A stretch of DNA of 64,000 nucleotides, taken from NCBI GenBank assembly GCA_051294375.1, contig CM119267.1, forward strand, positions 1,875,448-1,939,447, read 5' to 3'. Shown here piece by piece: positions 23,464-64,000 of this stretch. The stretch comes from Paraspadella gotoi (Eukaryota; Animalia; Chaetognatha). The first letter of the stretch is position 1; every line of letters begins with the position of its first letter. A program made the position numbers and the translations under genes. The notes beneath the pieces are model-generated. The model searched no databases. It was not told the DNA's origin and saw nothing but the letters and a program-made list of their open reading frames with translations.

Positions 23464-24000
23464 GTGGGAGATGAGGAGGGAGAGAAGAGAGAGAGACAGA
23501 GAGAGACGAGAAAAGAGAGAGAGAGATGAATGAGAGAGAGAGAGGAAAAGAAGAGACAGAGAGAGAGGAAAGAGAGATTTAGATAGAGATGAGAAAGAGA
23601 GAGAGAGAGAGAGGAGAGAGAGAGATGAGAGAGCGAGACAACCATCGATTGAACTCAATGTAATCATTTAATGAACATTCACTTGGACGTGATAAACATT
23701 CATAAACCACCGTTTTATTTCGAATAATGAGACAGCGAAACCCTCGTTTCGTTTAACTTGTCTTGCCTTACTTTTCGTCGTCATTTATCGTCGTATATGT
23801 CGTCGTCATCTTAATCTAATTTCACAATTTTAATGACTTTAATGATTCATTATGAATTAACATCATTCAAAACTTAATTAAAAACATTTTTTTTTTTGTT
23901 CAAAATATTTTTTTAATTGTTTTTGTGACTTCTTTTATTCTTTCTTTCTTTCTTTCTTTCCTTTCTTTCTTCTTTTCTCTTTCTTTCTCTTTTCTTTTTT

Positions 24001-24032
<32 letters not shown>

Positions 24033-24130
24033 GTCTTTCTTCTTTTTCATTCTTTCTTTCTTTCCATCTCTCATTTTCCCCTCAGACTTTCTCAGTATTC
24101 CAGATCCAACGTTTTTGAGAATTTTTGCTC

Positions 24131-24161
<31 letters not shown>

Positions 24162-25194: not shown

Positions 25195-25247
<53 letters not shown>

Positions 25248-26677
25248 TCTCTCTCTCCTCTCCTGCTTTCCCGTAACCATCCCCGAAAACGATAGCTCCC
25301 TCTGATTGGTCAGGCCCTCGCTTTTCCTCGCTTCTGATTGCCGACAAAAAAAAAAGATAAAAAACGCTCTTAGGTTTAGGATTCTCGTGAGGACGACCAG
25401 ATATACGCGTTAGTCTGTCGGAAGGTCCGTGTTCTGTCGTCCGTTTTCGGTCCGTCTCTCAGTCGGTTAAATGTGTCTGTCGGTTGGGTCGGCTGGTGGT
25501 TTTCGGTCGGTCCGTCTGTATGTGTATATGTTTGTGGTTTTTGTTCTTTTCTCTTCTCCCTACAAACGCTGATGAGCGGAATTTATTGCCAGAGAGCGTC
25601 ACCTCAACTCAGTAATAAATATCGACTTCTTGACCTGACCAATCATCAAATCGTTGAGTCTTAATTAACAAATCAATACTGAGCATCTTGACCATCTGAT
25701 TGACCAAATCAGCGGAATCTCGTCAACGTCTTAATTCGAGTCGACGGAAAGTCGTCTAAATCGTCGTCGTAGTCAGTCGTCGATCGTCACGGCAGTCTGA
25801 TTGGTCGATGGATGGTATTTCGTCGAAATCTATTATTGGCTAATCGGTGGTTCATCGTCAGAATCTAATTGGCGGATTTATTGACTTCATTGACTCTCTC
25901 ATTGGCCTGATCTCTCGGCGAAGTTAAGAATTCGAAATTCGCCCCAAATTTTTGAAACGATGACGAATTCAGTTCTGGTTGGAGTCGTCGTCGTCTTCAG
26001 CTGTCGTTTTGTGTGTAGTGTTGTTGTTGTTTTCGTTGCGTTGTTGTGTGCTGATTGAAATCTCATTGTGAGAAAGAGAAAGGAAAAAAAAAAAGTTTTG
26101 GCGAATTTCGAAAAAGATCTCGGAGGGGGTGAGGGGAGACGAGAGAGAGCAGGAAGAGGAGAGAGACGAGAGAGAGAGAGACGAGAGAGATGAGCAGAAG
26201 AGAGAGAGACAGGGCGAAGAGGGGGCCGAAGAGAAAATGCCGTCACACTGAACGAAAGAATGACGTCAGATTTATGGTGGATCGCATCACCATGACGGAC
26301 CGACAGGATGGGAGCAAAACTACCCGAGAAGGAGGAGTGAAGGGAGGCGGGAGGGAGGGGGAAAGGAAGAATAGGGAGGAAGGAAGGTGAAGGTTGAGGG
26401 AGAAGGAAGGGGAGAGGGTAGCGATTAGCGAAATAGGAAAAGAGGAAAAAGGAAAAAAAGGGGAAAAAAGGGAAAAAGGAAAAAGGGAGGGTTGTAGAGG
26501 TCAATGGGTTTGCAAGCGATAGTTTTTGCAAAGTCAGGTGGCCGGTATGCACAACAAGCAGGCGAGGAGGAGCAGGAAGGAGGAGTAGGAGGAGGCAGAG
26601 AGAAGAATATCGGATGCAGGATATAAATCGAATGATTTGGCGAAATTTTTCATGGCATCGAAGTTAAAAGAAAAGAA
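23464..26677 (+). repeat. Left arm of a ~3.2 kb inverted duplication
   Basis: ORFs 25899-26552(-) and 28134-28787(+) translate identically, as do 25473-25664(+) and 29022-29213(-). Coordinates sum to 54686, placing the axis at ~27343. Confidence 0.95.
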
Positions 26678-28008: not shown

Positions 28009-29438
28009 TTCTTTTCTTTTAACTTCGATGCCATGAAAAATTTCGCCAAATCATTCGATTTATATCCTGCATCCGATATTCTTCTCTCTGCCTCCTCCTA
28101 CTCCTCCTTCCTGCTCCTCCTCGCCTGCTTGTTGTGCATACCGGCCACCTGACTTTGCAAAAACTATCGCTTGCAAACCCATTGACCTCTACAACCCTCC
28201 CTTTTTCCTTTTTCCCTTTTTTCCCCTTTTTTTCCTTTTTCCTCTTTTCCTATTTCGCTAATCGCTACCCTCTCCCCTTCCTTCTCCCTCAACCTTCACC
28301 TTCCTTCCTCCCTATTCTTCCTTTCCCCCTCCCTCCCGCCTCCCTTCACTCCTCCTTCTCGGGTAGTTTTGCTCCCATCCTGTCGGTCCGTCATGGTGAT
28401 GCGATCCACCATAAATCTGACGTCATTCTTTCGTTCAGTGTGACGGCATTTTCTCTTCGGCCCCCTCTTCGCCCTGTCTCTCTCTCTTCTGCTCATCTCT
28501 CTCGTCTCTCTCTCTCTCGTCTCTCTCCTCTTCCTGCTCTCTCTCGTCTCCCCTCACCCCCTCCGAGATCTTTTTCGAAATTCGCCAAAACTTTTTTTTT
28601 TTCCTTTCTCTTTCTCACAATGAGATTTCAATCAGCACACAACAACGCAACGAAAACAACAACAACACTACACACAAAACGACAGCTGAAGACGACGACG
28701 ACTCCAACCAGAACTGAATTCGTCATCGTTTCAAAAATTTGGGGCGAATTTCGAATTCTTAACTTCGCCGAGAGATCAGGCCAATGAGAGAGTCAATGAA
28801 GTCAATAAATCCGCCAATTAGATTCTGACGATGAACCACCGATTAGCCAATAATAGATTTCGACGAAATACCATCCATCGACCAATCAGACTGCCGTGAC
28901 GATCGACGACTGACTACGACGACGATTTAGACGACTTTCCGTCGACTCGAATTAAGACGTTGACGAGATTCCGCTGATTTGGTCAATCAGATGGTCAAGA
29001 TGCTCAGTATTGATTTGTTAATTAAGACTCAACGATTTGATGATTGGTCAGGTCAAGAAGTCGATATTTATTACTGAGTTGAGGTGACGCTCTCTGGCAA
29101 TAAATTCCGCTCATCAGCGTTTGTAGGGAGAAGAGAAAAGAACAAAAACCACAAACATATACACATACAGACGGACCGACCGAAAACCACCAGCCGACCC
29201 AACCGACAGACACATTTAACCGACTGAGAGACGGACCGAAAACGGACGACAGAACACGGACCTTCCGACAGACTAACGCGTATATCTGGTCGTCCTCACG
29301 AGAATCCTAAACCTAAGAGCGTTTTTTATCTTTTTTTTTTGTCGGCAATCAGAAGCGAGGAAAAGCGAGGGCCTGACCAATCAGAGGGAGCTATCGTTTT
29401 CGGGGATGGTTACGGGAAAGCAGGAGAGGAGAGAGAGA

Positions 29439-29491
<53 letters not shown>

Positions 29492-30452
29492 CGAGAGAGA
29501 GGTGGACGATTTGTTCACGCATCGCTTATGGTACTTTAAGCAAGAAGAAATCCCCATGGGATTAAGTCCGATCATCCGTTGTCTTGATCAAAAAAGAGAG
29601 AGAGAGAGAATAGAGAGAAACGAAATGGTTCATCTTAAAATTAGATGACGGATCGTATTTATAGTTTTATTTTACAAATTGAAAACATTTCCTTGTTTCT
29701 TTCTGCTTTTCCATTCCTTTCCTCCTTCCTTCCTTCCCTCTATTTCGCTTTCCTTCCATCTTCCTTTCCTCCTCTCTTTCTTTTCCTCCCTTCCTTCTTT
29801 CCCCCTCTTTTCCCCTTTCCTTTCCTCCCTTCCTCTTTTCCTCCTCTCTTTCTTCCTCCCTGCTCCTTTTTCCTCCTCTCTTCCTTTCCTCACCTTCCTT
29901 CTTTCCCCTCGTCTTCCTTTCCTCCCTTCCTTCGCTTCCTCCTCTCTTTTCCTTTTCCTCCCTTCCTTCTTTCCCCTCGTCTTTCCTTTCCCTCCCTTCC
30001 CTTTCCTTCCTCCCCTCTCTTTCCTTTCCTCCCTTCCTTCTTTCTTCCCTCTTTAAAGAGACGCCCAGACGAGGTTCGAAATTGGGTTGTCATGGCGACG
30101 AAAGTTGAGGAAGATGGAGGAGGCGTCCACTAAGAGTACGACGACGACGACGACGACGACGACGTCCTCGGATGGCGAGAGAAACGATTTACTCGTTTTT
30201 TTTTTCTTTTTTGAATTTTGACTGAAATTTTTTCACAATTCACGCTTTACTAGACTGAGCTTGACTCAGCAACAGTCAATGTGGTCTCACAGTCAGTCTC
30301 CTACCCATCTCACCTTCTTCATTTATCCAATTCACAAAAACCACTCACGGTTACTTTCACATCTGCGTTCCAGTTTTTCCTTCACAAATTTTCACTCTTA
30401 CATTATTTTCGGTGTGAAGAATTTTTTGTGAAACTTAATCCCAAAATATTTC

Positions 30453-30483
<31 letters not shown>

Positions 30484-30581
30484 GAGCAAAAATTCTCAAA
30501 AACGTTGGATCTGGAATACTGAGAAAGTCTGAGGGGAAAATGAGAGATGGAAAGAAAGAAAGAATGAAAAAGAAGAAAGAC

Positions 30582-30613
<32 letters not shown>

Positions 30614-31167
30614 AAAAAAGAAAAGAGAAAGAAAGAGAAAAGAAGAAAGAAAGGAAAGAAAGAAAGAAAGAAAGAATAAAAGAAGTCACAAAAACAATTA
30701 AAAAAATATTTTGAACAAAAAAAAAAATGTTTTTAATTAAGTTTTGAATGATGTTAATTCATAATGAATCATTAAAGTCATTAAAATTGTGAAATTAGAT
30801 TAAGATGACGACGACATATACGACGATAAAGAGCGAATAAGGCATAGACGAAGTTTAACTACAACGAGGGTTTCGCTGTCTCATTATTCTGAAATTAAAA
30901 CGGTGGTTTATGAATGTTTATCACGTCCAAGTGAAATGTTTCATTTAAATGATTTCATCATTGGAGTTCAATCGATGGGTTGTCTCGCTCTCTCTCTCTC
31001 TCTCTCTCCTCTCTCCTCTCTTTCTCTCTTATCCATCTCTATCTCAATCTCTCTTTCCTCTCTTCTCTGTCTCCCTTTCTTTTCTCTCTCTCTCTCTCAT
31101 TCTAATCTCTCTTCTTCTTTCTCGTCTCTCTCTGTCTCTCTCTCTTCTCTCCCTCCTCATCTCCCAC
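28009..31167 (-). repeat. Right arm of the inverted duplication
   Basis: Reverse complement of 23464-26677. The inner ~2 kb looks identical; the outer part has indels. Its distal end (30800-31150) is repeated again at ~31490-31860. Confidence 0.95.
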
Positions 31168-38300: not shown

Positions 38301-39864
38301 GTCCCTTCACAGATCCCAGTCCTCTGACGACCACACGCTTCTTGTCCAGTAACATTCTTGTTTTTTCGCGGAGCAGCTCTTTTAGTTTACTTTTAGATCG
38401 GTCGGTCAGGTAAATTCTGCCATCCGGTCTGGTCCACTACGGTAAATTCTCAAATATGGCATATAATCTGCAGTCGGTTGCTCCATTTTGTTAAGAACGA
38501 AAAAACATCAAAATCTAAAGTGACCTGCTTGCGCCCGCCTTCCAGGAAATCTTAAAAACTATATAAGAGATACAAAGGACGAAGAAGGGGATAATAGGTA
38601 CGTGTCAGAGCACCGACAAAAATTCTTAGACATACTTGCCTATCCTGATGAGTCCATCACTCACTTTCCGGTGCATGACTGTCACAAACTTCCTCCGGAA
38701 GACGTACATTTCACTCCTCCTCGTGTTATTCGACGTGTCATCACTGTTATTATTATTAACGCCATTCCGATCATGAACGTCATCTACCCTTGCCGGTTCC
38801 GAGTCATACGTCCATCACTTTCATCGTACTGTCCGATCATGCGGTCATCATTTCTGGTACGATTCAAACGTATGTACGTTCTTACTATGTGAGTCAAGAT
38901 TCAAGAACTCGTTCAACTCATGACGTTTAAGAGATCATAGACGTCAACATCTCAGCCCATGACGTCACCAATCCTTTCTCTCTCAATTTCAACATATGAT
39001 GCAAGATATAAGAATCACCCTAAGCAATGAGAAGTAACAATGGATATATTTGAGAACTGTTATATCTCTTGACTTTCATTAAATCCTTTATCATTATTAG
39101 ACTGAAATGAATTAAACAATTGTGGCTGAAATAAAAGTGGATCATTTGTTTTTTCCTTAATTGCTTGAGATTGAAAATGCTCTCGCGGATATTTGTAGAA
39201 GAAAAAACAAAAGATAAAAGCGAACTTCCATTTATAATATTTTTTTTGGAAGCAACTTTATATTTCACTTGTCTTATTTAGCTATCTCATATTTATTGAC
39301 GAAACTCATTAATCTAATTTTTTTAATGTTTAAACTAAAGATTTATGTAACTAATTTTATTAATTAATTAATTTTGAAAAACGAGAAGTTTATTTTACAA
39401 CAAAGCTAAACATTTTTTTGTTAATGAACGAAATTTAGTTCAGTTTTCCNNNNNNNNNNGAGTCAAATCGTCGAAGATAGCTGTATTAATAAAATACAAA
39501 TTTAATTATTTAATGTATTAATAACGATATAAGATAAAGAACACTGAGCAATGTAAATTTTTTTTATCCACTGACCTTGGATCTCCTTTAGGCGTTCAAT
39601 AATTACTTTGTTTGGCCGAGGTGGTGGTACCGGAGGAGCTTTTTTTGGCCTCATCATCGTTGTCTTCTTTGTCTTTAAAAAAAGTAGAGAAAAGAAATAT
39701 TAAGTACTAATATGTTTACGTATTACTAAAAATACCCAAAGCATTAATTTGAAATTTTGGTGATATATGTATTTAATTAAACCGATTAATTTGAACGCGA
39801 TAATAGAACCTAAAACTAAACCTGCTATTAATCTATCTAGTCTAATCATATATTAAACTAATAA

Positions 39865-41361
39865 CTAACTCTGTTTACCTTTTATTGAAGACAATCTATC
39901 AAGTTTTATGTAACAAGTCCTAAGTTGTTTTCCGCTTCTTAATGTTAAGATATTACTCTCTACCATTTCCTCTTTTTCTTCAGTTTCACCATTTTCTTCG
40001 CCACAAATCACGCACTCCATCCTTTCATCCTCTTTTTCCGTCTCTTCCACCGTACTGTCTGGATATTCATCTACTTCATCGCAGATTTGAAATTCATTCT
40101 CAACCGCCTTATCAACGCTGTCCTCATCTTCCATTGTATTCGTTAAATTATTCCTAACTTTTTCTATAACTGAGTGTAATCTGACCTTTTTGTCTTCCAC
40201 TTCGTTTTCAATCCCCACCATCTCATTTTCTTGTTCCTTTTCATCTATGATAATTACTCTACTGTTGCCACTTTCTTTGTTGCCGGTGAATAGTCGTGAG
40301 TAATTTTTCATATTCATTTGTAACGATGGAAAAGCAACATCGTTGTTGTTGTTGTTGGTCGCCGTCTCTTGTTGTTGACGCTCCATTTCTTCTAACTTTT
40401 TTTTTTCATTTTCTTCTCTGGCTTTGATCTGACATGTTAATAGTTTTGTAACCTTTCTCTTTTTCTTAAGTAATTCTTTCTTCTGTTCTTTTACCATCTC
40501 TTCCTCTAATTGTATTCTCTTAAGATAATTACTAAACTCATTTTCATAATTTAATGTTTTCATTTGTTTTTCCGTCATTTGTTCCAAGTTTTGTAACGGA
40601 GTGGTTGAAAGAAGTGTAGTAGCAATGGAAGATGGTGAATGATGTATCGTCATTCCTGCTGTTGTTTGCTGAGTTGTTGGCGTTGAAATAATCGCGCTCG
40701 GTTGTTTATCAATTGCGTTTTCTTTTAGAGGTGTTGCTTGATAGTTGTTATTGTTGATGTTCGGCAAAGGATGTCGAACGATAGATGGAGCTGATTGCAA
40801 GATAGATGGAGGTGATTGCAAGATAGTAGGACGAGGCGAAGTAAAAATGATAGATGGCGCTGCTTTCGTTGAATGAGAGAGAGAGATAGATTGAGCAGAA
40901 GGCTGTTTTAATTTTTGAGAAAAGATGATCTGTTTCGTTTGTAAGGTTGCTATCAAGTTCTCTTGTTGCCTAATCTTTTCATTTTGCTGATTAAGCATCA
41001 TTGACTGCTGATTGATTTGTTGAATTTGTTGGTTTTGTATTTTTTTCAAATGCAAAATTTCCTCCTGTCTCATTTCTTCTCTCTTATTAGTTGTAAGGTA
41101 AATTGCAAAGTTTTTACCAATATCTCTCACGCAAGGCGGATTTGTTGGTATAAAACGCCTAGAATTTCTTAATACCATCTCCGTTCCTCCATATATCCCC
41201 CATTGTAAAGTTGGTTGCACCTCGTTTTTAGGGCTTGCGAATACAGGGGTTAGTATCGCGGTATTAAATTCTAGGGGTGAGGCAATAATCGACCCTGATT
41301 CTTGAACCGTCACCTGATTTCCTTGTGCTTCCTTGTTATCTTGTTGTTGTCTGGAATCCAT
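39865..41361 (-). CDS. 498-aa Q/E/K-rich, probably coiled-coil protein of unknown function, head-to-head with the ATPase
   Basis: Long clean ORF of mixed composition. C-terminal CVIC, LRSGK and CYIKLDRL motifs. ATG is 81 bp from the ATPase ATG. Possible donor AG|GTAAAC near the 3' end. Confidence 0.7.
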   Translation of the reverse strand: MDSRQQQDNKEAQGNQVTVQESGSIIASPLEFNTAILTPVFASPKNEVQPTLQWGIYGGTEMVLRNSRRFIPTNPPCVRDIGKNFAIYLTTNKREEMRQEEILHLKKIQNQQIQQINQQSMMLNQQNEKIRQQENLIATLQTKQIIFSQKLKQPSAQSISLSHSTKAAPSIIFTSPRPTILQSPPSILQSAPSIVRHPLPNINNNNYQATPLKENAIDKQPSAIISTPTTQQTTAGMTIHHSPSSIATTLLSTTPLQNLEQMTEKQMKTLNYENEFSNYLKRIQLEEEMVKEQKKELLKKKRKVTKLLTCQIKAREENEKKKLEEMERQQQETATNNNNNDVAFPSLQMNMKNYSRLFTGNKESGNSRVIIIDEKEQENEMVGIENEVEDKKVRLHSVIEKVRNNLTNTMEDEDSVDKAVENEFQICDEVDEYPDSTVEETEKEDERMECVICGEENGETEEKEEMVESNILTLRSGKQLRTCYIKLDRLSSIKGKQS

Positions 41362-41441
41362 TCCTAAAAAAAAATATTAACATATTGCGAGTGATCATAT
41401 ATAATAAATGGTTTTCCTTATATCTTATCATTTTAAAAAAA

Positions 41442-42265
41442 ATGGAATCACTATCGAATAAAAACATTTTTGACGCTAACATAATTACTCCGTTTTGCAT
41501 GTTAGCGGTCGGTTCTTCAAATTCAGGTTCATAGAAACTAGTTAATTATTTATCACTACTTAAAAAACATGTTGTTGTTTTTTTTTACAGGAAAAACTAC
41601 ATTTGTTTCAAATCTCATAAAACACAGCGGGGAGATAGTCGACCAACCATTTGGAAAAATACTAATCTGCCATCAAGCGAACGGAGACAATTATAACAAC
41701 GACAACTTTCCGGCGCCTCTTTCCATCAAGGAGCGCCATCGCTGGAGCAAGTGGAAGATCTTGCCGAAACTCCAAACAGCGTCTTGATCTGCGACGACTT
41801 GGACAACTCGGCCGATCTGAACTACGACCTCTTGCAGCGCATTTTTTGCGTAATCTCGCATCACTCGGTATGACATAAAAATTAATATAAATATCATTAG
41901 ATTGTTGATTAACTTTATTTTTATTGTTTTTTTACTTTAGAGACTAAACTGCATCTTCATACTTCATAATCTTTATTCGAGACAAAATCCAGTTTTGAGG
42001 ACTCTAAATTTAAACGCCTCTTATCTCGTCTTGACCAAGTTCTCCCGCGATCGAAGCGTCTTTCAAGTTTTAGGAAGACAACTGTATCCTGACAAGCCCA
42101 ACCTGCTCGTCGAGTGTTACGTCACAATCAAGAAAACTCGGAACATCAGTTTCCTTATCTATTGATCGATTGTCATCCCCATAGCAAGTCGAAACGTTAA
42201 AGATCAGATCGCGGATCTTTCCCTTCGAGGCGCCCTCTGTTATTTACAGAAGCAAGACGTCGTGA
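41442..42265 (+). CDS. A32/FtsK-like genome-packaging ATPase, 3 exons (introns 41527-41590 and 41868-41940)
   Basis: Spliced: MESLSNKNIFDANIITPFCMLAVGSSNSG|KTTFVSNLIK (Walker A), VLICDDL (Walker B), IFCVISHHS|RLNCIFILHNLYSRQNPVLRTLNLNASYLVLTKFSRD (Polinton ATPase SHH...RTISLNA.Y...RD pattern). Frameshifts near 41730 and 42130-42190. Confidence 0.92.
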
Positions 42266-42639
42266 TGAAGCCACGGAACAATCTGGCCGCCAGAGAGCGT
42301 TTCGCCACCCAGTTTCCGCTTCTAAAAAAAGTTAACAAACTCCCGCGCAAACATCAAAAAGCATTTTGGCGTTCAAAAAAATCGAACGAAGCCTGCGTAT
42401 GTCTCAGCGAAATATGCTTGAACGTTCTCAAGCGTAACATACCGGTAACCGGAAGTCAGTTATCTCGATTACGCCCATATAAGAAGCAGATGCACGCTCT
42501 CTCTCTCAGAAGTTCGCCCATGAAACACCGAAAGCGAATCGTACAAAAAGGAGGCATGTTGTCTACCCTGATTTCCTTACTAGCTCCCTCTATCATCAGC
42601 CTCATCGTCGAAGCGGTCGCCAGAAAGAAAAAGAAATAA
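42265..42639 (+). CDS. Conserved small basic Maverick protein with QKGG followed by a hydrophobic segment
   Basis: CLSEICLNVLKRNIPV...LRPYKKQM...IVQKGGMLSTLISLLAP matches the Maverick EICLNILKGNVP...QxGGFL protein. Its ATG overlaps the ATPase stop (TGATG). Confidence 0.8.
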   Translation: MKPRNNLAARERFATQFPLLKKVNKLPRKHQKAFWRSKKSNEACVCLSEICLNVLKRNIPVTGSQLSRLRPYKKQMHALSLRSSPMKHRKRIVQKGGMLSTLISLLAPSIISLIVEAVARKKKK

Positions 42640-43593: not shown

Positions 43594-44713
43594 CAAAGAG
43601 AGAAAGAACAAAACGATAGGCGACATTTACTACGACGCGAAACATCCGGCAGGCTTTTCCACCGTATCCAGAGTATTTCAAGCTGCTCGTCGACGAGACC
43701 CATCCATCGTCAAGTCTGACATACAANNNNNNNNNNGCGCCCAAAGAGTATTTACTAATTATAAACGCCCCCCTAAAAAGCTATTCAGAAAATATTACGT
43801 TTTGAGACGAAATTCTGAATTCAGCATCGATTTAGTCGACGTTCAAGCCTTGAAGACCCGTTCCAACGGGTTTGCCTACTTTTTATCTTGCGTAGATGCC
43901 TTTAGCAAATGGGGATGGTGTCGTCCGTTAAAAACAAAGACCGCTTCCGAAGTCGCTTCCGCTTTCGCTTCCATCATTGAAGACAATGGTTTTCAAGCCC
44001 CTGACTTGATAGTCATGGATCGGGGCAGAGAGTGGAGCGGAAACTTTGCCAGATTGATGGAGGCGCTGGAGATCGAGGTCGTATACCCGCCCAGCGGAAT
44101 GAAGGCTCCGTTGGTCGAATCATTCAACTCGACCATAGAATCTTATCTTTACAGAGTCATGTACGCCATGTCCGACTGGAATTTCGTCAAGTATCTTCAA
44201 CCCTGCGTCAGCGCCTACAACGCTCGTCCTCGAGCGTCGCTTTTTGGAATGTCACCTGCCTCGGCCCATCGAGCCTCGAACGAGAACGAACTGAGAGAGA
44301 AGTATTTGAAAGCCCGTCTCGCCCATCGCGCTAAATACGCCGGCCGTCGCCCAATTTTTAAGGTCGGTCAGTCAGTCAAAAGAGTTTTGAAGCGGGGTCC
44401 ATTTTCGCGAGGATACGCTCAACGTTTTCAGGATCAAATTTTTCGCATCTCTCGCGTACAGCGAACGGTGCCTCCAACGTATAAATTAGAAAACTCGCGA
44501 AAGACGTACTACGATCATCAGCTGGTCGCCGCCAAAGAACCTAATCGCCCTCGAGAAAAACGTTACTTTGTAATTAAAACGCGCAAAACCGACGGTAGAA
44601 AATTAAGGTCTGGAAATCGTTCCGGTCAGTCGACCAGCTACTTGGTCAGATCGAGCGACTCGGATCGCGGGCGTTGGATGAGTCAGGAAGATGTCGATCG
44701 CCTCGTTGACTGA
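43544..44713 (+). CDS. Retroviral-type (rve) DDE integrase of Maverick type
   Basis: IYYDAKHPAGFS N-terminal motif; IDLVD, CVDAFSKW, MDRGREW and VESFNSTI supply the D-D-E; FKVGQSV...FSRGY...YKL SH3-like tail; degenerate chromo-like YLVR...W at the C-terminus. Confidence 0.95.
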   Translation: MSNKRKKLXXXXTSVSDKERKNKTIGDIYYDAKHPAGFSTVSRVFQAARRRDPSIVKSDIQXXXXAQRVFTNYKRPPKKLFRKYYVLRRNSEFSIDLVDVQALKTRSNGFAYFLSCVDAFSKWGWCRPLKTKTASEVASAFASIIEDNGFQAPDLIVMDRGREWSGNFARLMEALEIEVVYPPSGMKAPLVESFNSTIESYLYRVMYAMSDWNFVKYLQPCVSAYNARPRASLFGMSPASAHRASNENELREKYLKARLAHRAKYAGRRPIFKVGQSVKRVLKRGPFSRGYAQRFQDQIFRISRVQRTVPPTYKLENSRKTYYDHQLVAAKEPNRPREKRYFVIKTRKTDGRKLRSGNRSGQSTSYLVRSSDSDRGRWMSQEDVDRLVD

Positions 44714-45716
44714 TTCCGACTTTTACGTCATGATGAGTAGCGACGGAGTCGATGACAGCTTCGTAGAGGGCAACGTCAGCGGAGATTTTCGTCTTCGTTT
44801 ACCGGATCCCATTCAACTGGACGGCGGAGTTTGGGAATGCGCCTTATTAGAATTCAGTTACATTAATCATATCTATAATGTACTCAACCCTGAGGAAAAC
44901 TATATATTAATTTTCGACTGGCTTTACAAAATATCCGACGACCCGCCCATCCCAATTTGGGGAAATTTCACCTGGATTAAAATCCCTAATGGCAACTATC
45001 GAACCGGCGATCAACTCTGTCAAACTTTGAACAAATTATTGACAAAAGCGGTTCCTCGCCTCAACGACGTNNNNNNNNNNAATTCCATCAACAGAAAAAT
45101 ATCGTACAAGATCGCCAACGAGTACGTCACCTTAAAAATTGTCGGCCCCGTTCTCTTTCTCATGGGAGTTAACACGGAACCCGCGAATGAAAAATACTTC
45201 ATAATTGGTAAAACGAAACGGGGTGATAAGTACGATTATCAATACGTCAACACCGACGGAAAGACGGTCAAGGAAATNNNNNNNNNNGACAATCCAAATG
45301 TCGTTTTAGTCAGCGCTAATGACGACAAGGATGGGGAGATGGAGTTGGTGGTGCAAATGGAAATAAGCACGGCCCTGATGGTATATTGCAACTTCCTTCG
45401 ACGTTGGAGAGTCAGCAATTCTTACAGCTCTTTATTGAAGATTGTGCCCCTAGAAAGACCCAAGGAAGAAGAAGCCCCATCTCGCAAACTGTTTCACATC
45501 AAATCGCCCATATATTTGGAAGTGGAAAGGAAGCACTTGGACGTCCTGCACATGTCCATCAAAAATTTCTTTGGTCAAACCATAGTTTTTCAAGTGAGTC
45601 TAGGCATTTTTTTTTCTATAAAAACTCAAAGTTATTAACTTTTTTTTTTATTTCAATCGCAGGAAGGATTGACTTGGGCCTTACTTCATTTCCGTCGAAA
45701 AATACCGAGATATTAA
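44691..45716 (+). CDS. Minor capsid protein (penton, PX), 2 exons (intron 45594-45662)
   Basis: FYVMMSS...GNVSGDFRLRLPDPIQLDGGVWECALLEFSY, IPNGNY, LMVYCNF, LLKIVP and PIYLEV. Splicing CAA|GTGAGT...CGCAG|GAA adds EGLTWALLHFRRKIPRY*, restoring the terminal LHFRR motif. Confidence 0.9.
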
Positions 45717-46216: not shown

Positions 46217-46325
46217 CCAAGGCAAGACGCTCTCTCAACAAGGGAAAAACGGCAAAGGATCAAGAAAAAAACGTAAAAAGATTTAACTCCTCGCTTCAAA
46301 AATATCCTTTATTAATAAAAAAAAG

Positions 46326-48047
46326 ATGGAAGATAAACTTTTTCGCGCGGGCAGGCATTAAGAGAGGCCGAGCCTTGCGTGGAAGAGCGCCCCTGAACGT
46401 CTTCGAAGGCGTCTCACTAATCCATCCTTATACTTAACCTATCCCATACCACTCTCTGCTCTCCTGATCTGCGACACTAATCAGCATGCGATCGACATGC
46501 ATCCTCACTGTCTACGTACTAACAAATCTAACGCCGTACTGTCAAGGGAATACGATGCGGTCTACCACATTACTAATTCACTGTACGAATCGCCGCAGCA
46601 TCACACCTCCCGACTGCGCCCTAACAAGAAGCACCGGCCCTACAGTACGTCCCATCCCTCACTGTTTCACGGGCAACGAGGCCGTTGTATCACGAGAGCA
46701 GTCCCTATCACGCGTTAGTTTCTGCGACCAATTCGCTGTGACATCGCCGAACAGCAATACCATTCTTGTTCGATCTTCCTCCCTGCAGCGAGTTTTCTAG
46801 ATATGAACGGATCTTTTTTTCATCGTCGATCTCTCGATAACTACAAGGCCGGATGCGCAAATTCCGCGAAGTAACAGACGCCGCCACTAGCGTTGGCTAT
46901 AATCAATAACGTTTTCTTCTTCGATCTTTGAAAGCGTGACCTTTAAAATACAATTCCAGAAAACCTGAGCGATAATTTTCACCTACGCCTTTTCCTCATA
47001 CTTCAACACGGCTTCTCAATTAACTCGTGCGGAGGCTCAAGCTAAGTTATCCGTCGGGATGGGATCTGGACGACAATTTTCGCGGCGAACGAAGCTGCAG
47101 GCCGCCGGCAACAAATTCCGCCTTCAAGACACGCTCTCAATGGTTTGGCCGCGAAATTTGGTCAGGTTGATCGGATTCGTCAATCACGCGGCATGTGGAA
47201 TCAAAATAAATTACTGGGATTCCGCAAGTCAACGCCTCTCTCGACGTTTGTTCGTAACAAAGATAATTTTGTGTCTACTTAACGCGGGGCGACCACCCTC
47301 GGACTTTAAGTTGAATCTGAAACAAATGAGGCTCTACTGAGAAAAGTTGGTGTTTACCTTCGATCAATTGAGTATTCGAACGCCGAACTCGCCACTCAGA
47401 GCCGCCAAGTATACGTTGCGATCTAACTCGACTCGCGCATTACCATAGCGGCGGTCGATGAGAAGACGGCGCCAGTTCGAATCGGTTTTCCCCTTCCAAC
47501 ATTTTTCCAGATTTCATACTCTGTTGCTTCATCGAGACCGAAAACTACCATCGGAAGCTTTCGCTAAAAATCCTTTAATTTTGAAAACTTTTCCTTCAAT
47601 CTCTCGAAGCTGGTCGTCGAGTCGGAAATCTACCTCCAATTGGCATTTGGCATAGTCGTTGAGTTTCTCCAAGACCTCCAAGGAGAGAGGACTTCGCCCT
47701 CGCCTATTACCATCTTTTCGAGTCGGACCTTTCTAAAATTGAACGTGGTTTGCCCATAACTCAAAAGATGTTCGCCGACGGGGGGTACGCCATATACGTC
47801 ATGTCCAACGTCCGGTAAACGGACCGTTTCGCCGATCACCGTGCTCCCCGACAGATCGTCAATTCGCGGATCGAGGTTGTTGATGTTTCTTCGGCCGATA
47901 CACTAATCAGCTTGCCCCGCTCTCTGCTATCTACATGGTAAAGCCCTATTCTCACAGACATACAAAAGCTTGACCCTCCTTCTTGTTCAGCGAGATAAGC
48001 GGCACGTATTTCGCTGGATTCACGCGTCAGGCTCACCAAAGACTTTT
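46326..48047 (+). pseudogene. Major capsid protein (PY), heavily frameshifted as assembled
   Basis: Lies between the pVI-like gene and the protease. Fragments IINNVF/SSIFESVT (~46900-46940) and YAFSSYF (~46985) correspond to NNxLxSLF.V and YPYRAY. C-terminal LFSEISGT-like stretch near 47985. ATG follows an A-run at 46326. Confidence 0.65.
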
Positions 48048-48057
48048 AAAAAAAAAA

Positions 48058-48530
48058 ATGGATTCGAGTCGGATGAATAAAATTGACCGCAGTCGGATCC
48101 TCTACGGTAGCGCAATCTACGGTGGCATTTTTGCGCCTCTATACTACTCCCCCCCTCAGTCGAACCGTCGATCGTCTTTACGAATTTGGACCCCGATTAA
48201 ATTTGAGGCTCGCATTGGCTTATTGTTTGCAATGCCGACGAGCATAGATACTTCGTCATGGACGCTTCGGGCGATTCGCGCGATCGATTTAAACCCCCCC
48301 CCTTATCTTTCGCCGATCGAATAAAAAACCATAGTTTATTCCAACGTGGGTCATTCAGTCGGAACAAACTCAAACTTGCTTCGCTCATTGTCTTGGTCTT
48401 TTTACTCTTTCTGGCTAGAGGGATGTCGGCCGAGAGGGATCGTCGAGGAGGTCTACGATTTATCCCCGGGTCACGGATACCATGGAACACGATTTTAATC
48501 GCCACTCTACTGAATCAGATCGTTTGGACG
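48058..48530 (+). pseudogene. Adenain-like (C5) maturation cysteine protease, frameshifted as assembled
   Basis: Fragments YGGIFA, HWLIVC (~48213), RYFVMDASG (~48246) and WVIQSEQTQTCFAHCL (~48347-48395) give H-D-Q-C in adenain order. End approximate. Confidence 0.75.
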
Positions 48531-50864
48531 CCGAAGACGGACGAATCGTGCCATTTTTCGCCCGCCCCAATAATTACTAGTAAAGACTATAAAGCAAAGA
48601 CATGTCGATCGAAGAGATAAATAAATAAAAAAATGGCTAAAAGCAAAGAAAGGTGGAGCAGCGACGGGCGTCGTAATAAAAGGACGCAATTTTTGGTGGA
48701 AAAAAGAAAAAAATGCGGAAAAAAGGAAAAAAATGCAAACTGCGGAAGACGCAAGCAAGAGGGCCAAAAAAAAAATGTCACGGAATTACGCAATGACAAT
48801 ATGTCTAGACTAGACTTGTACAAAAAAAACTTGATTGAGATTTTGAACATTAAAACGTTACTCACCGATATTTCTCTCTCTCTCTCTCTCTCTGTCTTCG
48901 ATGATGACGATGATTAGATTTTGGAGGGACAGCGACGGGATGCGAAGCTTCTATTCTTTCTTTATCTTTAACTTAACTGTTAAAAAAAAGGGAGAGAGAA
49001 AAAAAAATAAAATTCATCAAAAAAAAAATGGTCTAAACTGCGGGGCGCTGAGTGAGCGCCGATCTCGATTGAGCGAAAGAGAGAGATATCGCTTCATCGA
49101 AAACTTTTTTCCATTTCTCTCTCTCTCTCTCTCCCCCCCTTTTTTTTTTCTTACCCATTATCTAAACCAAACATCGCCGTCGCCTCTCACAATATCGCGG
49201 CGACATTAAAAAAAAAAATAAATCGGCGGCAAATTTTTTTTTTTAAAATTTCGATAGTATATTTTACCGATCACATCGATATATCTCTCTCACTTCAATC
49301 TCCGAGAGACGACGCCTTTCTACCATCGGCAAAAAAAAAAAAAAGGAAAAAAATGTCCTCAATTTTTTTCGTTTTCCGTCGGTGAGAGGATATCGATTTC
49401 GTGCCACTCAAATCTAGAGGACCATCTCCGTTCAAAATTAAAGAAAAACGGATTAAATTGGAAAACGATCCTCATAAGAGCCATTTGGCTAAAGCAGTGG
49501 GGAATGGCGGGCTCTTAGGTCGAACGCTTACCATTTGCTGACGAGGCGAACTTCGCTTACCTCGAGAATCGACTAATAAATGATGGGGGTCCAGAACATT
49601 TCGCGGAGTCGAGCCACGGTTTAAGCATTACTAAGCGATAGATGAGGCGATAATAGTCGCTCTGTTCCGAAACGATTCCAAATGGTGCGACTATCTGCCG
49701 AGAGTGGCGGTGGAACGAGCTTCGCGTTTGTAGATGCAAACGACGGCAAGGGGCGTTTCCCCAATCTCCGTGCACCACGGGACGCCCCTGGAAAATCGGA
49801 CAACGGGTGCCCCATAACGGTGGTCCTTCGGTTCCTGGAGCCAGAAATTTTCGTACATTGAGGTTAGTTTTTTTTTTTTTTCTCTCATATATATTTTTTT
49901 TTAAAAATAAACCAAAAACCTTTTTAACTCGCCTTTTATGTCTCTTCGTCTCTCTCTCTCTCTATTTTTTTTTCTATTCAGCATTTTATCTCATCAAACC
50001 GTCACGGCCTGCTCTCCTGAGGACTCGAACCGTCTGCTTGACGATTGAATCAGGAGTCGCCGGCGAGAGAAGAGATGAGCCGATCCTGGGAGAATTCGTC
50101 TCGGCGTTTTGCCGGGTTCCGGGTTCGGGGAGAGGCCTAAATCTCTCCTGATAAACGCCGCGATCAATTCGAACCGCGGCGGTCGGGCGTCCTTCCGACG
50201 CCGGCTCTTCCTCGGAAACTTTCCTTCGTGGTCGAGCGGGTGATGGAGTGTACGAAGAAGAAAAGTCAGTAAGCGCCAAGAATAGAAATCGTGGCTGTCA
50301 CCTCTCTGTCTTCTTTGTCTTTTCTTCCTCCACCTATTATCCTCCTCCCTTTCCTACTCCTCTCCCATCTTATTCAACTCCTCGCTCGCTCCTCTCCTCC
50401 CCCTCCCTCCTCCTCCTAACCATTCTACCGGCACCGACGAAAAGGCCAAGGGGATCGAAGAGAAAGGACCGTCCGTCGACAGAGCCGACCTATGACGAGC
50501 GACGACGGCACGACGACAGCCACTCAGAAGGAGAGGAGAAGAAACAACGGAGGGAAAAAGAAGACAAAAAAAAACGAAGAAGAAAAAACGAGAAGAAGAA
50601 GGAAGAAGTGGCCAATGTTATTGCGATCAACTTTGAATCTGTTTAAAACGATATATCTTTTTGAAATCTGTTTAAAACATATCATTTTTCTCTATCTCTT
50701 TCGCTGTCTAACTTTAATAGATCTTCTCTCTCTCTTCCTCTCTCTTATCTCTTTTGGTGCGAAACGAAAAAAATAATTTTTATAATAACAATTTAATTAA
50801 TGTACAATACAATACATTAATTTAATGTTATAATTTCCTTTTTTCTTCTTTTTTTTCTCGAACA

Positions 50865-53800
50865 ATGAGCTGCCCCAACGATCCCGGGCGCGATAATCGG
50901 CGCCAGAGCCAGGGACCCGCAAATTTAGACAGCCAGAATCTCTTTGTCGTCCGAAGCGGCGGCACGCTCTTGTTCTTGAACGAGGCGTTTTGGAGGTAAA
51001 TTTTCAGATCCTGTGTTGAGCTGCCTCTGAGTCCCGTTCTTGACGGGAACGAGAGTTTTTCAAGGAATTCTAAAGATATCGTGATTCAGTTGGGTTTTTT
51101 GATCGTGGCTCGGCATGTCTCCCTTGGCCCGAAATCTCTTGCGCTCGTCTTCGACTTTGCGTGCCGCGCAAAAGCGCGCACGCAAGTCCTCTCGGCGCGC
51201 GCACGCTTTGCGTGCCGCAGGGGGGGATCGCACCTCTCGCTGCAGCGGCTTGTTCAGCCTGCGCAGCGGTGAGTCGCCGCGGCTTGGTCAGCCCGCGGCT
51301 AATGTTTTCCGGAGGAAGAAGATTCGCGTTTCTTCTTCTCTCTTCTTCTCTCTTTCTTCTTCTTCTTCTTTAGCCTCGGAGTCGGAGGATGCATGACTGA
51401 AGTCACTGACGTCGAGAAGAAAAGTTTTTCGGTCTCCAAATTGGCGCATTTTTCAAGAAAGTCGTCGCCAATCGGCATTCGCCGATCGAAACTCGAGGGG
51501 TCGAGGAGGCGAGGAGAGGGAAGCAACTGCCCCGAACGTACGTGATACGACTCTATATCTCCGCGCCACCGTCTCTGCGCCCGGGAGGAGGTCGGAGGTA
51601 AAATCGTCCTCGGTCGTCTCGTCATCAGTCGTCGTGCTTTTAGCGTCGGCCTGATCTCAGGGGGCGGGTTGGACCGGCTCGTCGAGCACGGAAACGGCGT
51701 AAATTTCGGGCAGCAATGTTACAAGCTGCTAATTTATCGTCTGCTTTCCGCCAATGTTCGTCTACGAAAGAGAGAAAGAGAAAGAAAGAGAGAGGATTGA
51801 GGAGGAGAAAAAGTTGTTGTAAAACAAGTTAAAAATGAAAATGCGAAAGAAGAAAAAGAAGAGAGAGAGCAGAGAGAGAGAAAAAGTTACTTTTGAAAAA
51901 ACACGACCCTGGCTTCGGATTTCTCTCTCTGTAAGCCAAAAGAATCGAACGCTTTTCGCAGGCGGCGTTGTTGACAAAGACGAGGATGCTCCAAGGGATA
52001 TACGCTGGTGTCCAACATTCCGACCACTTGCCGAGGATCTCGCCAAAGTTGGATCGTTGCGCGTCTCCTTTGGCGATACTCAATGACAACAAACCGCCGT
52101 CCGTGGTCCGTGCGAACGAAACGACCTCGGGTCTCCCCTCGCAATCCGGAAACACCCTCTTGACGCCTTCGCCCCCCCATAGGTAAAATCTGCCATCAGC
52201 AGCTTGCTAGCGTCCAATATGGCGACGCCACCGAATGATCGGCGAGAAGTTTTGCCTTGACTCGCGCCAACTTGACGACTGGCCAAATTCGGCGAAACGA
52301 CGTTGAACCGAGTGAAAGTCTACTCTGGACGACCAGCTTGGGAGAGGTCGTCGGTGAACTCCGGACGCAGCTTGACGGTTTGACAAAGAGCCAAGCGATT
52401 CATTATCGGTATCGATCCTGCGGGCGATGACGATCGGTTAGTTACATTATTAATTATTAGCTTTAATTATTAACTATTAGTTTAATGTATTAATTTATTA
52501 GTTAATTATTAATCTAAATTATCTAATTAATTAGTTAATTAAAATTCCTAACTCCGAAACAGGAATTGCACACACACTTGAGAAGCGTCTTTCATGAAGG
52601 AAGTTTTCGCCAGTCTTTCTCTCGCGGCGTGGGAAATGAATCGCACGAAATCCTTCTATTAAAACGGGCTTTTCTGTCTGTACATTCGATCGCCGCAATG
52701 AAAGGGTCGCTGAGTTCCGACCAAACGACAGGGCGAAAGCGAGACTCTCTCTAGTCAAAAAGTATCTCTCTATGTCCAGTCAAGCAGGCTATCAACTTTT
52801 CCGTTCAACGCCCACTCTGTGAATTCGTACTTTCGTAGCCAGGGAGACGACTAACGGACTGAGTCTCGGAGTGCGAAGCTCTCTTTCTTCGGGGAGAATT
52901 GGGAAAGTCTTTTCATGGCGTGATGAAGATTGCTCCGGAGGGTTGCGCAGATCGACTTCGAGAATCAAGCCTTCGCCATCTTTCGTCCCGACGCGTGCAC
53001 ATTGCGCGCCAATTTCCGGGCCGTACAACTCGCTTCGAATCTCTTTACCAAACGATCATTGGACACGAAGCGTAACCGGGCGTTAAGGTAAGGCCAACCG
53101 CGGACAACTGGCGTACCGTAATAAACGAACAGGATGTGAATAAAATTTGTTTTTTTTTTTTGCCCCGCTCTTTTTTATTCCCCATTCTATTCTTACAGAT
53201 TGTATGCGCGTCCACGTGAACGATCAAACGCGTCGCCGAAAATTCTGGGGATCGTCGTCGTTGCTTAGCCGGATTCGTTCGGACGACACCGGAAAAAAAA
53301 TCGTGAGTTGAACGGGGAAACGAACCCTCCCCCTATAAAGGACGCAGAGATATGTTAATTATCATTAGATTTTTTTTTTTTTTTTTTTTGGGTTTGTTAA
53401 TTTATCTCTTCTACCTGAGCCATGGGATTCGAAGGCTAAAAAATTCTTGACGAGTTTTTTAAGTAGAAAATGAAGCTTCTATTTCCCAGAGAATTGAAAG
53501 CATGATGTCTTGAACTGAGAGAGACGCAGAAAATAAATATAAATAAATAAATACATAAATATCTCTTTCTCTTATCTTTCCTCATCTTAATCGCCAGCTT
53601 CCGCTGACGTAATAGGCTGCGGTTCGAGATTGAAAGTTTTGTCTGTCATCACACCTGCTAGTTCGAAACTATATCACAGAGAAATAGAGAATCCAGTTCT
53701 ATAAAAAATAGAAATAAATAAAATTGCGCCCCTCTTATTTCTTAATGAATTTATATATATATATATTCTCACGTGTAAATAACAGATATTCGCCAGAGTG

Positions 53801-56042
53801 TCGAAGCGACGAAGGCGCTCCCAGATCCTCAATTATCTCGAGTATTCCTCTTCGGATATCAATCGCTGCCGCCATCTTCGTTCGAAATTATTTCTCTCTT
53901 CGGTGCGGGTCGCGAAAAGGCGAGGTATCGTTTCAAAACGTCTCGAGACTGATGTAATTGAAGGGCCATGGTCATCTTGAACGCATGACAGGTCCGATCA
54001 GACTCTCGCGCCTGAAAAGGAATCGATTGACGTGAGCGTTAAGTCATGCGGAAACTATGATCGCGGGTGGACTCTTGCCTCGACAAGTTGCGCCAAACCT
54101 CTCCTCTCGACGCGCCGCAAATGAACAATGTATTTTGAAGCATTCTTTCGCCCGCGAATCCACGATATTTTCCCAGGGATCTGTTATCAAAAATTGTAAG
54201 AGTCCGGATGGTCAAGTAGCGATTTTTGTGGCAATCGCAACGAAAAAACCTCAAGCCTCTTTCGCCCTCATCATCCGTCTCTATTTTCGTCGTCGTCGTC
54301 GTCGTCGTCGTCGTTTCATCGTCGTCTTCGTCTTCTCGTCCCTCGTCGTCGACGCGCCTTCCGTTCTCGTACCACTCGATCGGTAACAATGATCGCACAA
54401 AAAAGTTGATGTCCAGCGGGTGTGAAAGGCGTTGCCCTTGGCCAATTACGTTGCCGATGTTTCTAGACCATCTTTGTTGGCTCCCACGCGCAGGCTTGAG
54501 AATGAGATTTGGGTCAAACCTTTCCGGCGCCTGATTAAAAAAAAAATTTTGTAAAGATGAGTCGAAAGATGAAAACGGCAATGCTTTCTTACTTTTGATG
54601 GAAAGCTACATTATCCATTTGCCCGATGATTGGTTTTTTGCGCGTTACAAAATCAGTAATGTGCTTTGAAACGTATGACTCCGAGCGATGATCGTGATGT
54701 CGCGTAACCTTTTCACCCTCCAGATTTCTCTTTTTGCCATGAAGAAGACCAAAAATCGGACCAGCTCAAGTTGAATGTCGATTCGGCTCTTCGTTCATCA
54801 CCCATTGGGAAGTTCTGTCGCAACAAAGCGCGATGATGATCGGAGTCCAGGCGCGGCCCGTTGAAGGAAGCGAAGACCCGGCGTTCGTCTCCCACGTATT
54901 TTCTCACGGGAAAGTCGTCCGAGGGTAGGGAAGATTTAATCTTATCGGCGAAGCTGATGCCGATAACTTGGTCCGATATTTCTTTCGCATCCTTGATCCT
55001 TGTTTACCAAGGATGATATTTGTTTGGCAATTTGAGCAACTATCTTAGCGTGAAGACTTTTCATGAGGACAGGAAATCTTATCCAAGACAATCGGCCTCA
55101 TCGCTCTTCATTTCTTTTATCTCCCTCTTCTCTAGGAACCGTGTGAACTGGACAGACATCTCGTCCTCAATATCGACGCGTAGGCCGACAGTAAGCTCAA
55201 CTCGGCGTGAAAAAAATTTTCCTGCGCGTCATAATGCCAACATTAAGTTCCTTCCGGTGATTAAGTTTCTAATTGGGCCGTCGCCGTACTTCTCGCCCGC
55301 CCATAAACGGAGTGAGCCGAAAACGTCGACGACTAAAGCGTGCTAAAGCAGGGACACTTTGATGCACAACGAACGACTTCCGTGCGATATTACCAAGACT
55401 GCGAAGAAGTAGTCGAGAAAGGTTGGTTATAGAAACCAGATGTCGTTCGCTATACTTGAAACGTTGTATCTTACATGCTCGATTCTTTTTTTAATTATTA
55501 AAAGATTACAAACTTTTAATATCCATTGGAACAGATTCGTTCTTATATAGAGACTTCTGCTACGGTATATATATTCTTTCTAATCCTTTAATCCCCACCT
55601 TCTTTTTAAAAATTGCATAAACGTTGATGCATAAATCGAGATTGAGTCTCTCGACGTGCGCAAAGGTGTTGGGCGTGGCCGGACAAGGTACTTGTTCTAA
55701 ATTAATTCTATGCTGATATTTTCTGTAACTACTTTCTAATTCAGGGTGACTGCGAGGTTTATACAGGCATGCCAGAAGAGCCAACTTCAAGCATATGGGG
55801 CTGCGCGATTTCACATTTACGACACATTTTTTATGAAGTAACCATTTAGGGGTAGGGAAGTGATGACCAAAAAGAGTCGTCTTTCCAGAATTTGGATAAA
55901 AACCCGCCAAGGTCAAGTCGGCTCGCTCAATTTTTGAATAGGAAATGTTAGACCCCATTTCGACTCTGTCGGATATTTGATTATACAGTTTAGCCAACAT
56001 GGTCGATAAGATTTTCATGATGCTGTCGCTCTCGTATATCAC
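50865..56042 (-). CDS. Protein-primed family B DNA polymerase, multi-exon and error-laden; true start probably further upstream
   Basis: N-terminal GSNI...TPKWLLHKKCVVNVK..ICLKLALLACL...INVY; exonuclease FD.NLIL (~54520); DSLFLCDIV; DIMLQF..VKIEL; LR|GGFVS; VDANNL|YG (motif A); GLILEVDL; KCVCNSCFG (motif B, ~52555-52580); AILDASKLLMADFTY; a DTDG-like motif C (~52100); LDTSVYPLEHP; RAKG; DDKR-like end. Confidence 0.9.
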
Positions 56043-60545: not shown

Positions 60546-60716
60546 CTTGTTTAATCAACCTAAACGATTAAGCACCCAGCGCGCGCGCATTGATTATTTA
60601 ATGAAGCATCGCAGTAAAAATGATAACATATTTTTTTTTTAAATTCAATCAACCATCGTTTAGATACATAACTTTTTTTTCATTTTTTCTTCTTATAAAA
60701 AAAGAAGAAAAAAGTT

Positions 60717-63544: not shown

Positions 63545-64000
63545 GGTAAGGCCAAGCGACTGGCGTAACCGTAACTAAAAGAAAAAATGTGAATAAAAAA
63601 ATTTTTTTTTTTGCTTTTTTTTATTCCCATTCCTTCTTACAGATTATTGGCGTCCACGTGAACGATCAAACGCGCCGGAAATTCTGGATCGTCGTCGTTG
63701 TAGCCGACTTCGTTCGATGAACCGGAAAAATATCGTGAGTTGACGGAAACGAACCCTCCCCTAATAAAAGAAAGAGAGAGATTAGTTAATTATCATGATT
63801 TTTTTTTTTGTTCTCACTCTCTACCTGAGCATGGATTCAAAGGCTAAAAATTCTTGACGAGTTTTAGTAGAAAATAACTCTATTTTCACCCCCGAGAATT
63901 GAAGCATGATGTCTTGACTGAGAGAGAGAGAGAGAATAAAAAGAGGAATAAATAAATAAATAAATAAATATCTCTTTTCTCTATCTTTCCTCACTTAATC
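63545..64000 (-). CDS. Second, cleaner copy of the PolB segment at ~53086-53590
   Basis: Colinear with copy 1. Spliced reading: DIMLQFSGVKIELF...FLAFESMLR|GGFVSVNSRYF...RLIVHVDANNL|YGYASRLAL, with introns 63761-63824 and 63575-63640. Confidence 0.9.

What the first reader, a model, noticed from the sequence alone, without database searches (positions are those of the whole stretch)
41509..41945. Walker A of the packaging ATPase is split by an intron
GSSNSG|KTT exists only after removing 41527-41590 (TCA G|gttcat...ttttacag|GA AAA ACT; phase 1). A second, phase-0 intron (41868-41940) sits right after the conserved SHH motif. The unspliced RNA stops at 41534, so packaging function would depend entirely on splicing. 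The first donor (GTTCAT) is weak, which could allow regulated intron retention (inference).
Basis: partly seen in the sequence, partly recalled or inferred. Interest (0 to 1): 0.7.

Follow-up and report, generated by a model that had tools for sequence, protein, structure and literature searches.

The report
Introns split Polinton packaging ATPase
A virus-like jumping element in what is likely an animal genome has two short intron-shaped inserts in the gene for its DNA-packaging motor, one cutting the ATP-binding loop, so the motor would likely be made only after host splicing; this is unusual because such core genes are reported to be intron-free, but no RNA was available to show the splicing.

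Summary
Confirmed at the stated coordinates. A Polinton/Maverick-type packaging ATPase gene (ATG 41442) holds two AT-rich GT-AG segments, 41527-41590 (phase 1) and 41868-41940 (phase 0). Each is the best of 14 open-frame donor/acceptor pairs against two profiles of homologues, with no gap; the first restores GxxxxGKT. Two diverged element families in the same organism carry different pyrimidine-rich AG acceptors at the intron-2 position. The 'weak donor, regulated retention' idea is not supported: that donor pairs better with U1 than the intron-2 donor. Other core genes also have homology-supported introns (minor capsid; polymerase motif A). No RNA holder was listed, so splicing is inferred. 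Papers read call Maverick core genes intronless; I found no report of this in seven searches. This scan noted similar ATPase introns in other genomes before. Verdict: real, new variant of a known kind.

The parts
41442..41526 (+). ATPase exon 1 (ATG 41442; 28 codons + 1 base; ends in the first part of Walker A)
   Evidence: aligns to profile positions 3-19 when joined to exon 2 and 4-23 alone, weakly (E 2)
41527..41590 (+). Intron 1, phase 1, GT-AG, 64 nt, 22% GC, splits the codon of the second Gly of GxxxxGKT; CAG|G at both ends; in-frame stop at 41532-41534 if kept; an ATG at 41569 is in frame with exon 2
41591..41867 (+). ATPase exon 2 (KT of Walker A, Walker B LICDD, SHH motif); one frame break in the window at about 41700-41720
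   Evidence: profile 19-53 (E 0.001) and 59-103 (E 0.0009) in different frames; length difference inside the break in 4 of 4 runs
41868..41940 (+). Intron 2, phase 0, GT-AG, 73 nt in the window, 15% GC, YTRAY at -32/-36; length varies by single bases between runs; acceptor position shared with two diverged families
   Evidence: (tables 4, 7, 8)
41941..42265 (+). ATPase exon 3 (stop TGA 42263-42265 overlaps next ATG); two frame breaks in the window at about 42120-42130 and 42185-42195
   Evidence: profile 107-167 (E 1.7e-13), 160-184, 184-203; 189 hits at E<=0.001 among 1.84 billion representatives
42265..42639 (+). Small basic ORF, homologue of the gene that follows the ATPase in intronless Polintons
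   Evidence: tblastn E 4e-17, L086; 14 of 23 listed substitutions synonymous vs 23% expected, p 1e-4
43613..44713 (+). rve integrase
   Evidence: Pfam PF00665 E 1.1e-08, above cut-off; tblastn E 6e-34
45594..45662 (+). Intron in the minor-capsid-like gene (about 44691-45716; label from gene order and a recalled C-terminal motif), phase 0, GTGAGT..TCGCAG, 69 nt
   Evidence: 13 of 37 identities, ungapped across the junction, to the matching gene of intronless L086
51700..57900 (-). Protein-primed PolB region, error-rich, with several intron candidates (57881-57810, 54592-54531, 53414-53333, about 52550 after motif B, 51890-51762); ends approximate
   Evidence: tblastn and profile hits; candidates, not validated
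63575..63640 (-). Intron in PolB motif A of a second polymerase copy, phase 2, GTAAGA..TTTTAG, 66 nt, 20% GC
   Evidence: flanking peptides are colinear with motif A of L086 PolB; 63545-64000 is 77.5% identical to 53087-53592

Best explanation
This is the packaging ATPase gene of a Polinton/Maverick-type element, interrupted by two short GT-AG segments that are likely ordinary spliceosomal introns, constitutively removed by the host, so a complete ATP-binding loop would exist only in the spliced product. Shown: the anatomy, the fit of both junctions to intronless homologues, the stops if either intron is kept, the shared intron-2 acceptor position in two diverged families, and further homology-supported introns in the same element. 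Inferred: host RNA polymerase II transcription and U2-type splicing; that the lineage gained its introns before its families diverged and has kept them; that the three frame breaks are assembly errors; that the protein packages DNA.
For: Six pieces tile the ATPase profile in order, with breaks at the two introns and three frame changes. Both proposed introns are best of 14 open-frame pairs with two profiles, no gap; 119 of 120 homologues have GxxxxGK[ST]. In one search, one diverged family matches 41939-41997 (12 differences) and is preceded by a CT-rich tract; another matches 41945-41987 (5 differences) and is preceded by a T-run and AG that fall at the same acceptor position; both go on colinearly into the next gene. 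Intron 2 tolerates single-base length changes between runs, while the laid exons show no length change except at the three breaks. Minor-capsid-like gene and PolB motif A have the same kind of intron. Gene order matches intronless L086. Neighbouring ORF shows a synonymous excess among copies.
Against: Splicing was not observed. Conservation of position was seen for the intron-2 acceptor only, from 23-30 letter loose ends of single contigs; nothing at 80% likeness covered intron 1 in diverged families. Intron 1 has no branch-point-like YTRAY nearer than -49. The window's own pieces gave no Pfam hit. The ATPase is divergent: 39 of 66 columns conserved in the first, tight homologue set are matched, with His for the usual Gln in the strand-4 motif (8 of 56 diverse homologues also have His, 37 Gln, 11 not parsed). 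Substitutions inside the ATPase were 3 synonymous of 8, which shows no selection either way.
Confidence: 0.84

Rival explanations
1. Intron 1 is a control switch: regulated retention gives a 30-residue peptide, or re-initiation at the intron's ATG (41569) gives an isoform without the first half of the P-loop, turning packaging off without silencing the element.
For: Donor +3 to +5 (TCA) departs from consensus; stop 6 bases into the intron; ATG 41569 is in frame with exon 2 and has A at -3; no variant listed inside intron 1 in six covering runs, against four variant places in intron 2. Adenovirus IVa2 has a minor unspliced mRNA (PMC7851563, passage).
Against: Donor 1 pairs with U1 at 7 of 11 positions, better than donor 2. 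661 of 5000 shuffles of the intron hold such an in-frame ATG. Early stops are expected in any AT-rich 64-nt intron. Variant counts are too small to mean anything.
Confidence: 0.07
2. The copy is dead and the two segments are neutral AT-rich insertions that happen to look like introns.
For: The window reads with three frame breaks in this gene and many in the capsid and polymerase regions; most vertebrate Maverick loci are degraded, with insertions that gene finders call introns (PMC8097293, passages).
Against: Exact GT-AG ends with zero-gap restoration at four sites in three genes; same acceptor position with unrelated intron sequence in two other families; 4 of 4 runs differ from the window inside each break.
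Confidence: 0.05
3. The introns are recent introner-type transposon insertions gained after integration, as in dinoflagellate Maverick-like proviruses.
For: CAG|G stands at both ends of intron 1, as a target duplication could leave; introners populate Maverick-like elements in dinoflagellates (PMC11957031, passages).
Against: Seven introns or candidates of the element share no sequence beyond composition: of 21 pairs the best was reached by 2 of 200 shuffles. The intron-2 site is shared by families about 80-88% alike in the exon with unrelated intron sequence, which points to old age. An old introner origin cannot be excluded.
Confidence: 0.04

Closest known systems
Animal Polintons/Mavericks (vertebrate: Barreat and Katzourakis 2021, PMC8097293, passages; nematode: Widen et al., bioRxiv 10.1101/2022.07.12.499685, passages)
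   Same: Integrase, PolB, packaging ATPase and capsid-like genes; gene order as in intronless locus L086.
   Different: Both papers describe the core genes as intronless (introns only in nematode cargo genes). Here the ATPase, the minor-capsid-like gene and PolB carry short GT-AG introns.
Introner-bearing Maverick-like proviruses of dinoflagellates (PMC11957031, passages)
   Same: Spliceosomal-type introns inside Polinton-like elements.
   Different: There the introns are repeated transposon families, mostly gained after integration; here they are unrelated in sequence and at least one position is shared between diverged families.
Adenovirus IVa2 packaging ATPase gene (PMC7851563, passages)
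   Same: A related packaging ATPase (homologues hit PF02456) made from a spliced mRNA, with a minor unspliced form.
   Different: The IVa2 intron lies after the first few codons, outside the ATPase motifs; here intron 1 splits Walker A and a second follows SHH.
Group I introns in cryptophyte and other protist polinton-like viruses (PMC12220804, passages)
   Same: Introns in polinton-like genomes.
   Different: Self-splicing, 309-376 nt, in a small gene upstream of the capsid gene; here 64-73 nt AT-rich GT-AG introns in core genes.

Membership tests
Polinton/Maverick | Retrovirus-like (rve) integrase | tested here: met
   PF00665 E 1.1e-08, 35.7 bits vs cut-off 32.6
Polinton/Maverick | [quoted passage not shown] | tested here: met
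   tblastn E 1e-08 and 9e-06 to PolB of related loci, motif A and B peptides; fragmented in the window
Polinton/Maverick | Packaging ATPase | tested here: met
Polinton/Maverick | Minor capsid protein | tested here: met
   tblastn E 8e-08 to a neighbour ORF of a related locus; 13 of 37 identities at the C-terminus to L086; the label is from gene order and a recalled motif
Polinton/Maverick | Major capsid protein and adenovirus-like protease | tested here: inconclusive
   46300-48600 is error-rich; protease-like match only E 0.44, no capsid match
Polinton/Maverick | [quoted passage not shown] | tested here: inconclusive
   none found; assembly gaps at 39450-39459 and 63445-63544, and the element may run past the window
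A32/IVa2-like (FtsK-HerA) packaging ATPase | Walker A GxxxxGK[ST] | tested here: met
   only across intron 1
A32/IVa2-like (FtsK-HerA) packaging ATPase | Walker B hhhhDD and SHH motif | tested here: met
   LICDD and SHH in exon 2
A32/IVa2-like (FtsK-HerA) packaging ATPase | Conserved Gln and Arg-Asn after SHH | tested here: inconclusive
   His for Gln, Ser-Arg for Arg-Asn; His also in 8 of 56 diverse homologues
A32/IVa2-like (FtsK-HerA) packaging ATPase | Pfam PF04665 or PF02456 match | tested here: inconclusive
   no hit for the window's short pieces; homologues hit; one Atlas cluster with 25% PF04665, score 0.92
U2-type spliceosomal intron | GT donor, YAG acceptor, pyrimidine tract | tested here: met
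U2-type spliceosomal intron | Branch-point motif 18-40 nt before the acceptor | tested here: inconclusive
   YTRAY at -32/-36 in intron 2, only -49 in intron 1; such words are common in AT-rich DNA
U2-type spliceosomal intron | Removal from the RNA | not testable with these tools
   no RNA holder listed
Introner (intron-generating transposon) | Repeated family of look-alike introns | tested here: not met
   within the window only: no similarity among 7 introns or candidates beyond composition; host genome not held

The most novel reading that the evidence does not exclude
The Walker A intron is an old, shared feature of a widespread, overlooked clade of intron-rich animal Polintons that prokaryote-style gene calling misses, and its retention acts as a splice-controlled switch between a transposon state and a particle-packaging state.
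Probability: 0.08. Interest if true: 0.85.

Novelty: new variant of a known kind. Interest (0 to 1): 0.5.

Why it matters
Surveys of Polintons look for intact, intronless open reading frames or use prokaryotic gene callers on the stated ground that these elements have no introns (PMC8097293, PMC10120064; passages). Intron-bearing lineages would be scored as broken fossils or missed. If the introns are spliced, the element depends on nuclear transcription and the host spliceosome, as adenoviruses do, and shared intron positions become markers for dating and tracing Polinton families. The junctions also give a clean RNA test of whether the packaging module is expressed, which bears on the open question whether animal Polintons make particles.

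Tried and rejected
No whole genome was held, so copy number, host introns and element ends could not be examined; the host was not identified (49 flank and element ORFs gave no Pfam hit above cut-off). RNA: no RNA holder listed. X9, guessed as RNA, has flat depth, keeps both introns and shows no splice joint, and is probably DNA; this says nothing on expression. X10 and X11 (other organisms) laid nothing at 80%. Word-index protein searches with the window's pieces found nothing, nor did viral contigs, PDB sequences or PHROGs. The 80 metagenome loci show no intron at either site (74 of 80 one ORF across both; 4 broken by in-frame stops without extra DNA; 2 cut by a contig end), but they were ranked by full-length match, which favours intronless genes. 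A third intron in place of the exon-2 frame break was rejected: no fitting GT-AG, and the conserved stretch is continuous. Programmed frameshifting was rejected because the runs differ from the window at each break. The first identity count for the minor capsid (3 of 37) was off by one residue and is replaced. A protein-level hint of the same Walker A intron in a distant relative (P0202: non-homologous leader, then GKT; 1 of 150 hits) has no DNA behind it and is only a lead. No fold was run. Kapitonov and Jurka 2006 was not held; Pritham 2007 and Repbase reports were not seen; no supplements were read, and they may hold intron annotations.

Full report
Observation. The two segments are in the sequence as written. 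From ATG 41442, exon 1 is 85 nt and ends TCA G; intron 1 (41527-41590, 64 nt, 22% GC) runs GTTCAT to TTACAG; the next bases give GSSNSG|KT across the junction. Intron 2 (41868-41940, 73 nt, 15% GC) runs GTATGA to CTTTAG and follows SHHS in phase 0. Keeping intron 1 gives a stop at 41532-41534, keeping intron 2 a stop at 41871-41873.

Is it more than chance? I obtained an intronless ATPase from a viral contig (L004; Pfam PF04665 and PF02456), its 120 best relatives of 1706 and built a profile. Among 2559 six-frame fragments of the window, the four best hits are pieces of this gene and tile the profile in order: 19-53, 59-103, 107-167, 160-184, with 184-203 at rank 7. A second profile from 56 full-length proteins among the 150 listed hits of an unindexed search with exon 3 (189 hits at E<=0.001) gives the same ranking, 40.3 vs 25.9 and 109.6 vs 89.0. 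That profile was chosen with exon 3, so its exon-3 score is biased, but the junction ranking is not. 119 of 120 homologues have GxxxxGK[ST].

In the window the frame changes three times inside the exons, at about 41700-41720, 42120-42130 and 42185-42195. Nine runs of one organism from three studies hold the stretch. All 4 of 4 runs laid differ from the window by one base in length inside each interval; X4 does so at the first break, X3 does not cover it, and X10 and X11 laid nothing. One study may be the source of the window. The window is visibly error-rich further right. The breaks are therefore likely assembly errors.

Comparative support. One search shows contigs of two diverged families in the same runs. 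One matches 41939-41997 (12 differences) and is preceded by a CT-rich tract; the other matches 41945-41987 (5 differences) and is preceded by a T-run and AG whose position, counted back, equals 41939-41940. Both continue colinearly into the next gene. So exon 3 begins at the same place behind unrelated intron-like sequence in three families. This rests on loose ends of 23-30 letters from single contigs per run, seen in several runs. Intron 2 also varies by single bases in length between runs. No diverged contig covered intron 1 at 80% likeness, so its age is untested.

The element. An rve integrase, PolB pieces on the minus strand and a gene order like that of intronless L086 make this a Polinton/Maverick-type element; capsid, PZ and protease labels rest on gene order and recalled motifs, and the major capsid, protease and terminal repeats were not established. 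The host was not identified; an invertebrate animal is my inference from the repeat-rich flanks and the animal-type relatives (1 of 10 top hits looked up carries a species name, a mussel). Two more introns are supported by homology: 45594-45662 in the minor-capsid-like gene (13 of 37 identities, no gap) and 63640-63575 in PolB motif A. Several more are candidates. That the validated introns fall in conserved motifs is partly a bias of detection, since only there can a junction be checked. The introns share no sequence.

Mechanism. Most likely the gene is transcribed in the nucleus and both introns are removed constitutively by the host spliceosome (inferred, 0.84). The retention idea gets little support: donor 1 has 7 of 11 matches to a recalled U1-pairing consensus, donor 2 has 5, and 3 of 196 GT sites in the region reach 7. 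An in-frame ATG in intron 1 (41569) would give a product without the first Gly of the P-loop, but 13% of shuffles hold one. ATPase activity is untested, and the protein departs from close-knit homologues at several conserved sites.

Literature. Passages read: intact vertebrate Mavericks are intronless (PMC8097293); nematode Maverick core genes are intronless, cargo genes have introns (10.1101/2022.07.12.499685); a protist survey used prokaryotic gene calling because such viruses lack introns (PMC10120064); introners occur in dinoflagellate Maverick-like proviruses (PMC11957031); group I introns occur in some polinton-like viruses (PMC12220804); adenovirus IVa2 is spliced near its start (PMC7851563). 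Term look-ups in six more papers showed nothing on spliceosomal introns in Polinton core genes. Seven searches (listings only) gave no such report, but subscription papers, Repbase reports and supplements were not seen. Earlier notes of this scan describe introns in or just before Walker A of Polinton ATPases in other genomes, and one intron-rich animal Maverick; these are unchecked and are not counted as support; none was near this window or like it in sequence.

Verdict. It is a new variant of a known kind: an intron-bearing Polinton whose packaging ATPase would depend on splicing. Interest 0.5.

Noticed in passing
window 45594-45662 (+): 69-nt phase-0 GT-AG intron near the end of the minor-capsid-like gene; ungapped match to an intronless homologue across the junction.
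   Followed up: yes
window 63575-63640 (-): 66-nt intron splits PolB motif A in a second polymerase copy; 63545-64000 is 77.5% identical to 53087-53592, an error-rich copy or a second element.
   Followed up: partly
window 51700-57900 (-): At least five further intron candidates in PolB, one directly after motif B; not validated because the stretch is error-rich.
   Followed up: partly
window 61300-62400 (-): Several short AT-rich GT-AG candidates (e.g. 61964-61903) between Cys-rich coding-like pieces: possibly a multi-exon accessory gene.
   Followed up: no
window about 41435: In runs X2 and X3 some contigs continue upstream of the ATPase start into other sequence, so the ATPase cassette has at least two upstream neighbours among copies.
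   Followed up: no
window 39868-41376 (-): 503-codon open frame, divergent from the ATPase gene, no Pfam hit.
   Followed up: no
window 59721-60554 (-) and 60720-61331 (-): Two clean ORFs of 278 and 204 codons without Pfam hits, probably accessory genes of the element.
   Followed up: no
window 24668-26677 / 28009-30018 and 23784-24173 / 30441-30830: Perfect inverted repeats of 2010 and 390 nt beside 25-N gaps; likely an assembly artefact.
   Followed up: no
protein P0202 (no locus): Distant ATPase homologue with a non-homologous leader directly before GKT, as a gene call begun inside a Walker A intron would look; P0199, P0207 and P0235 look similar near or after the SHH motif.
   Followed up: partly
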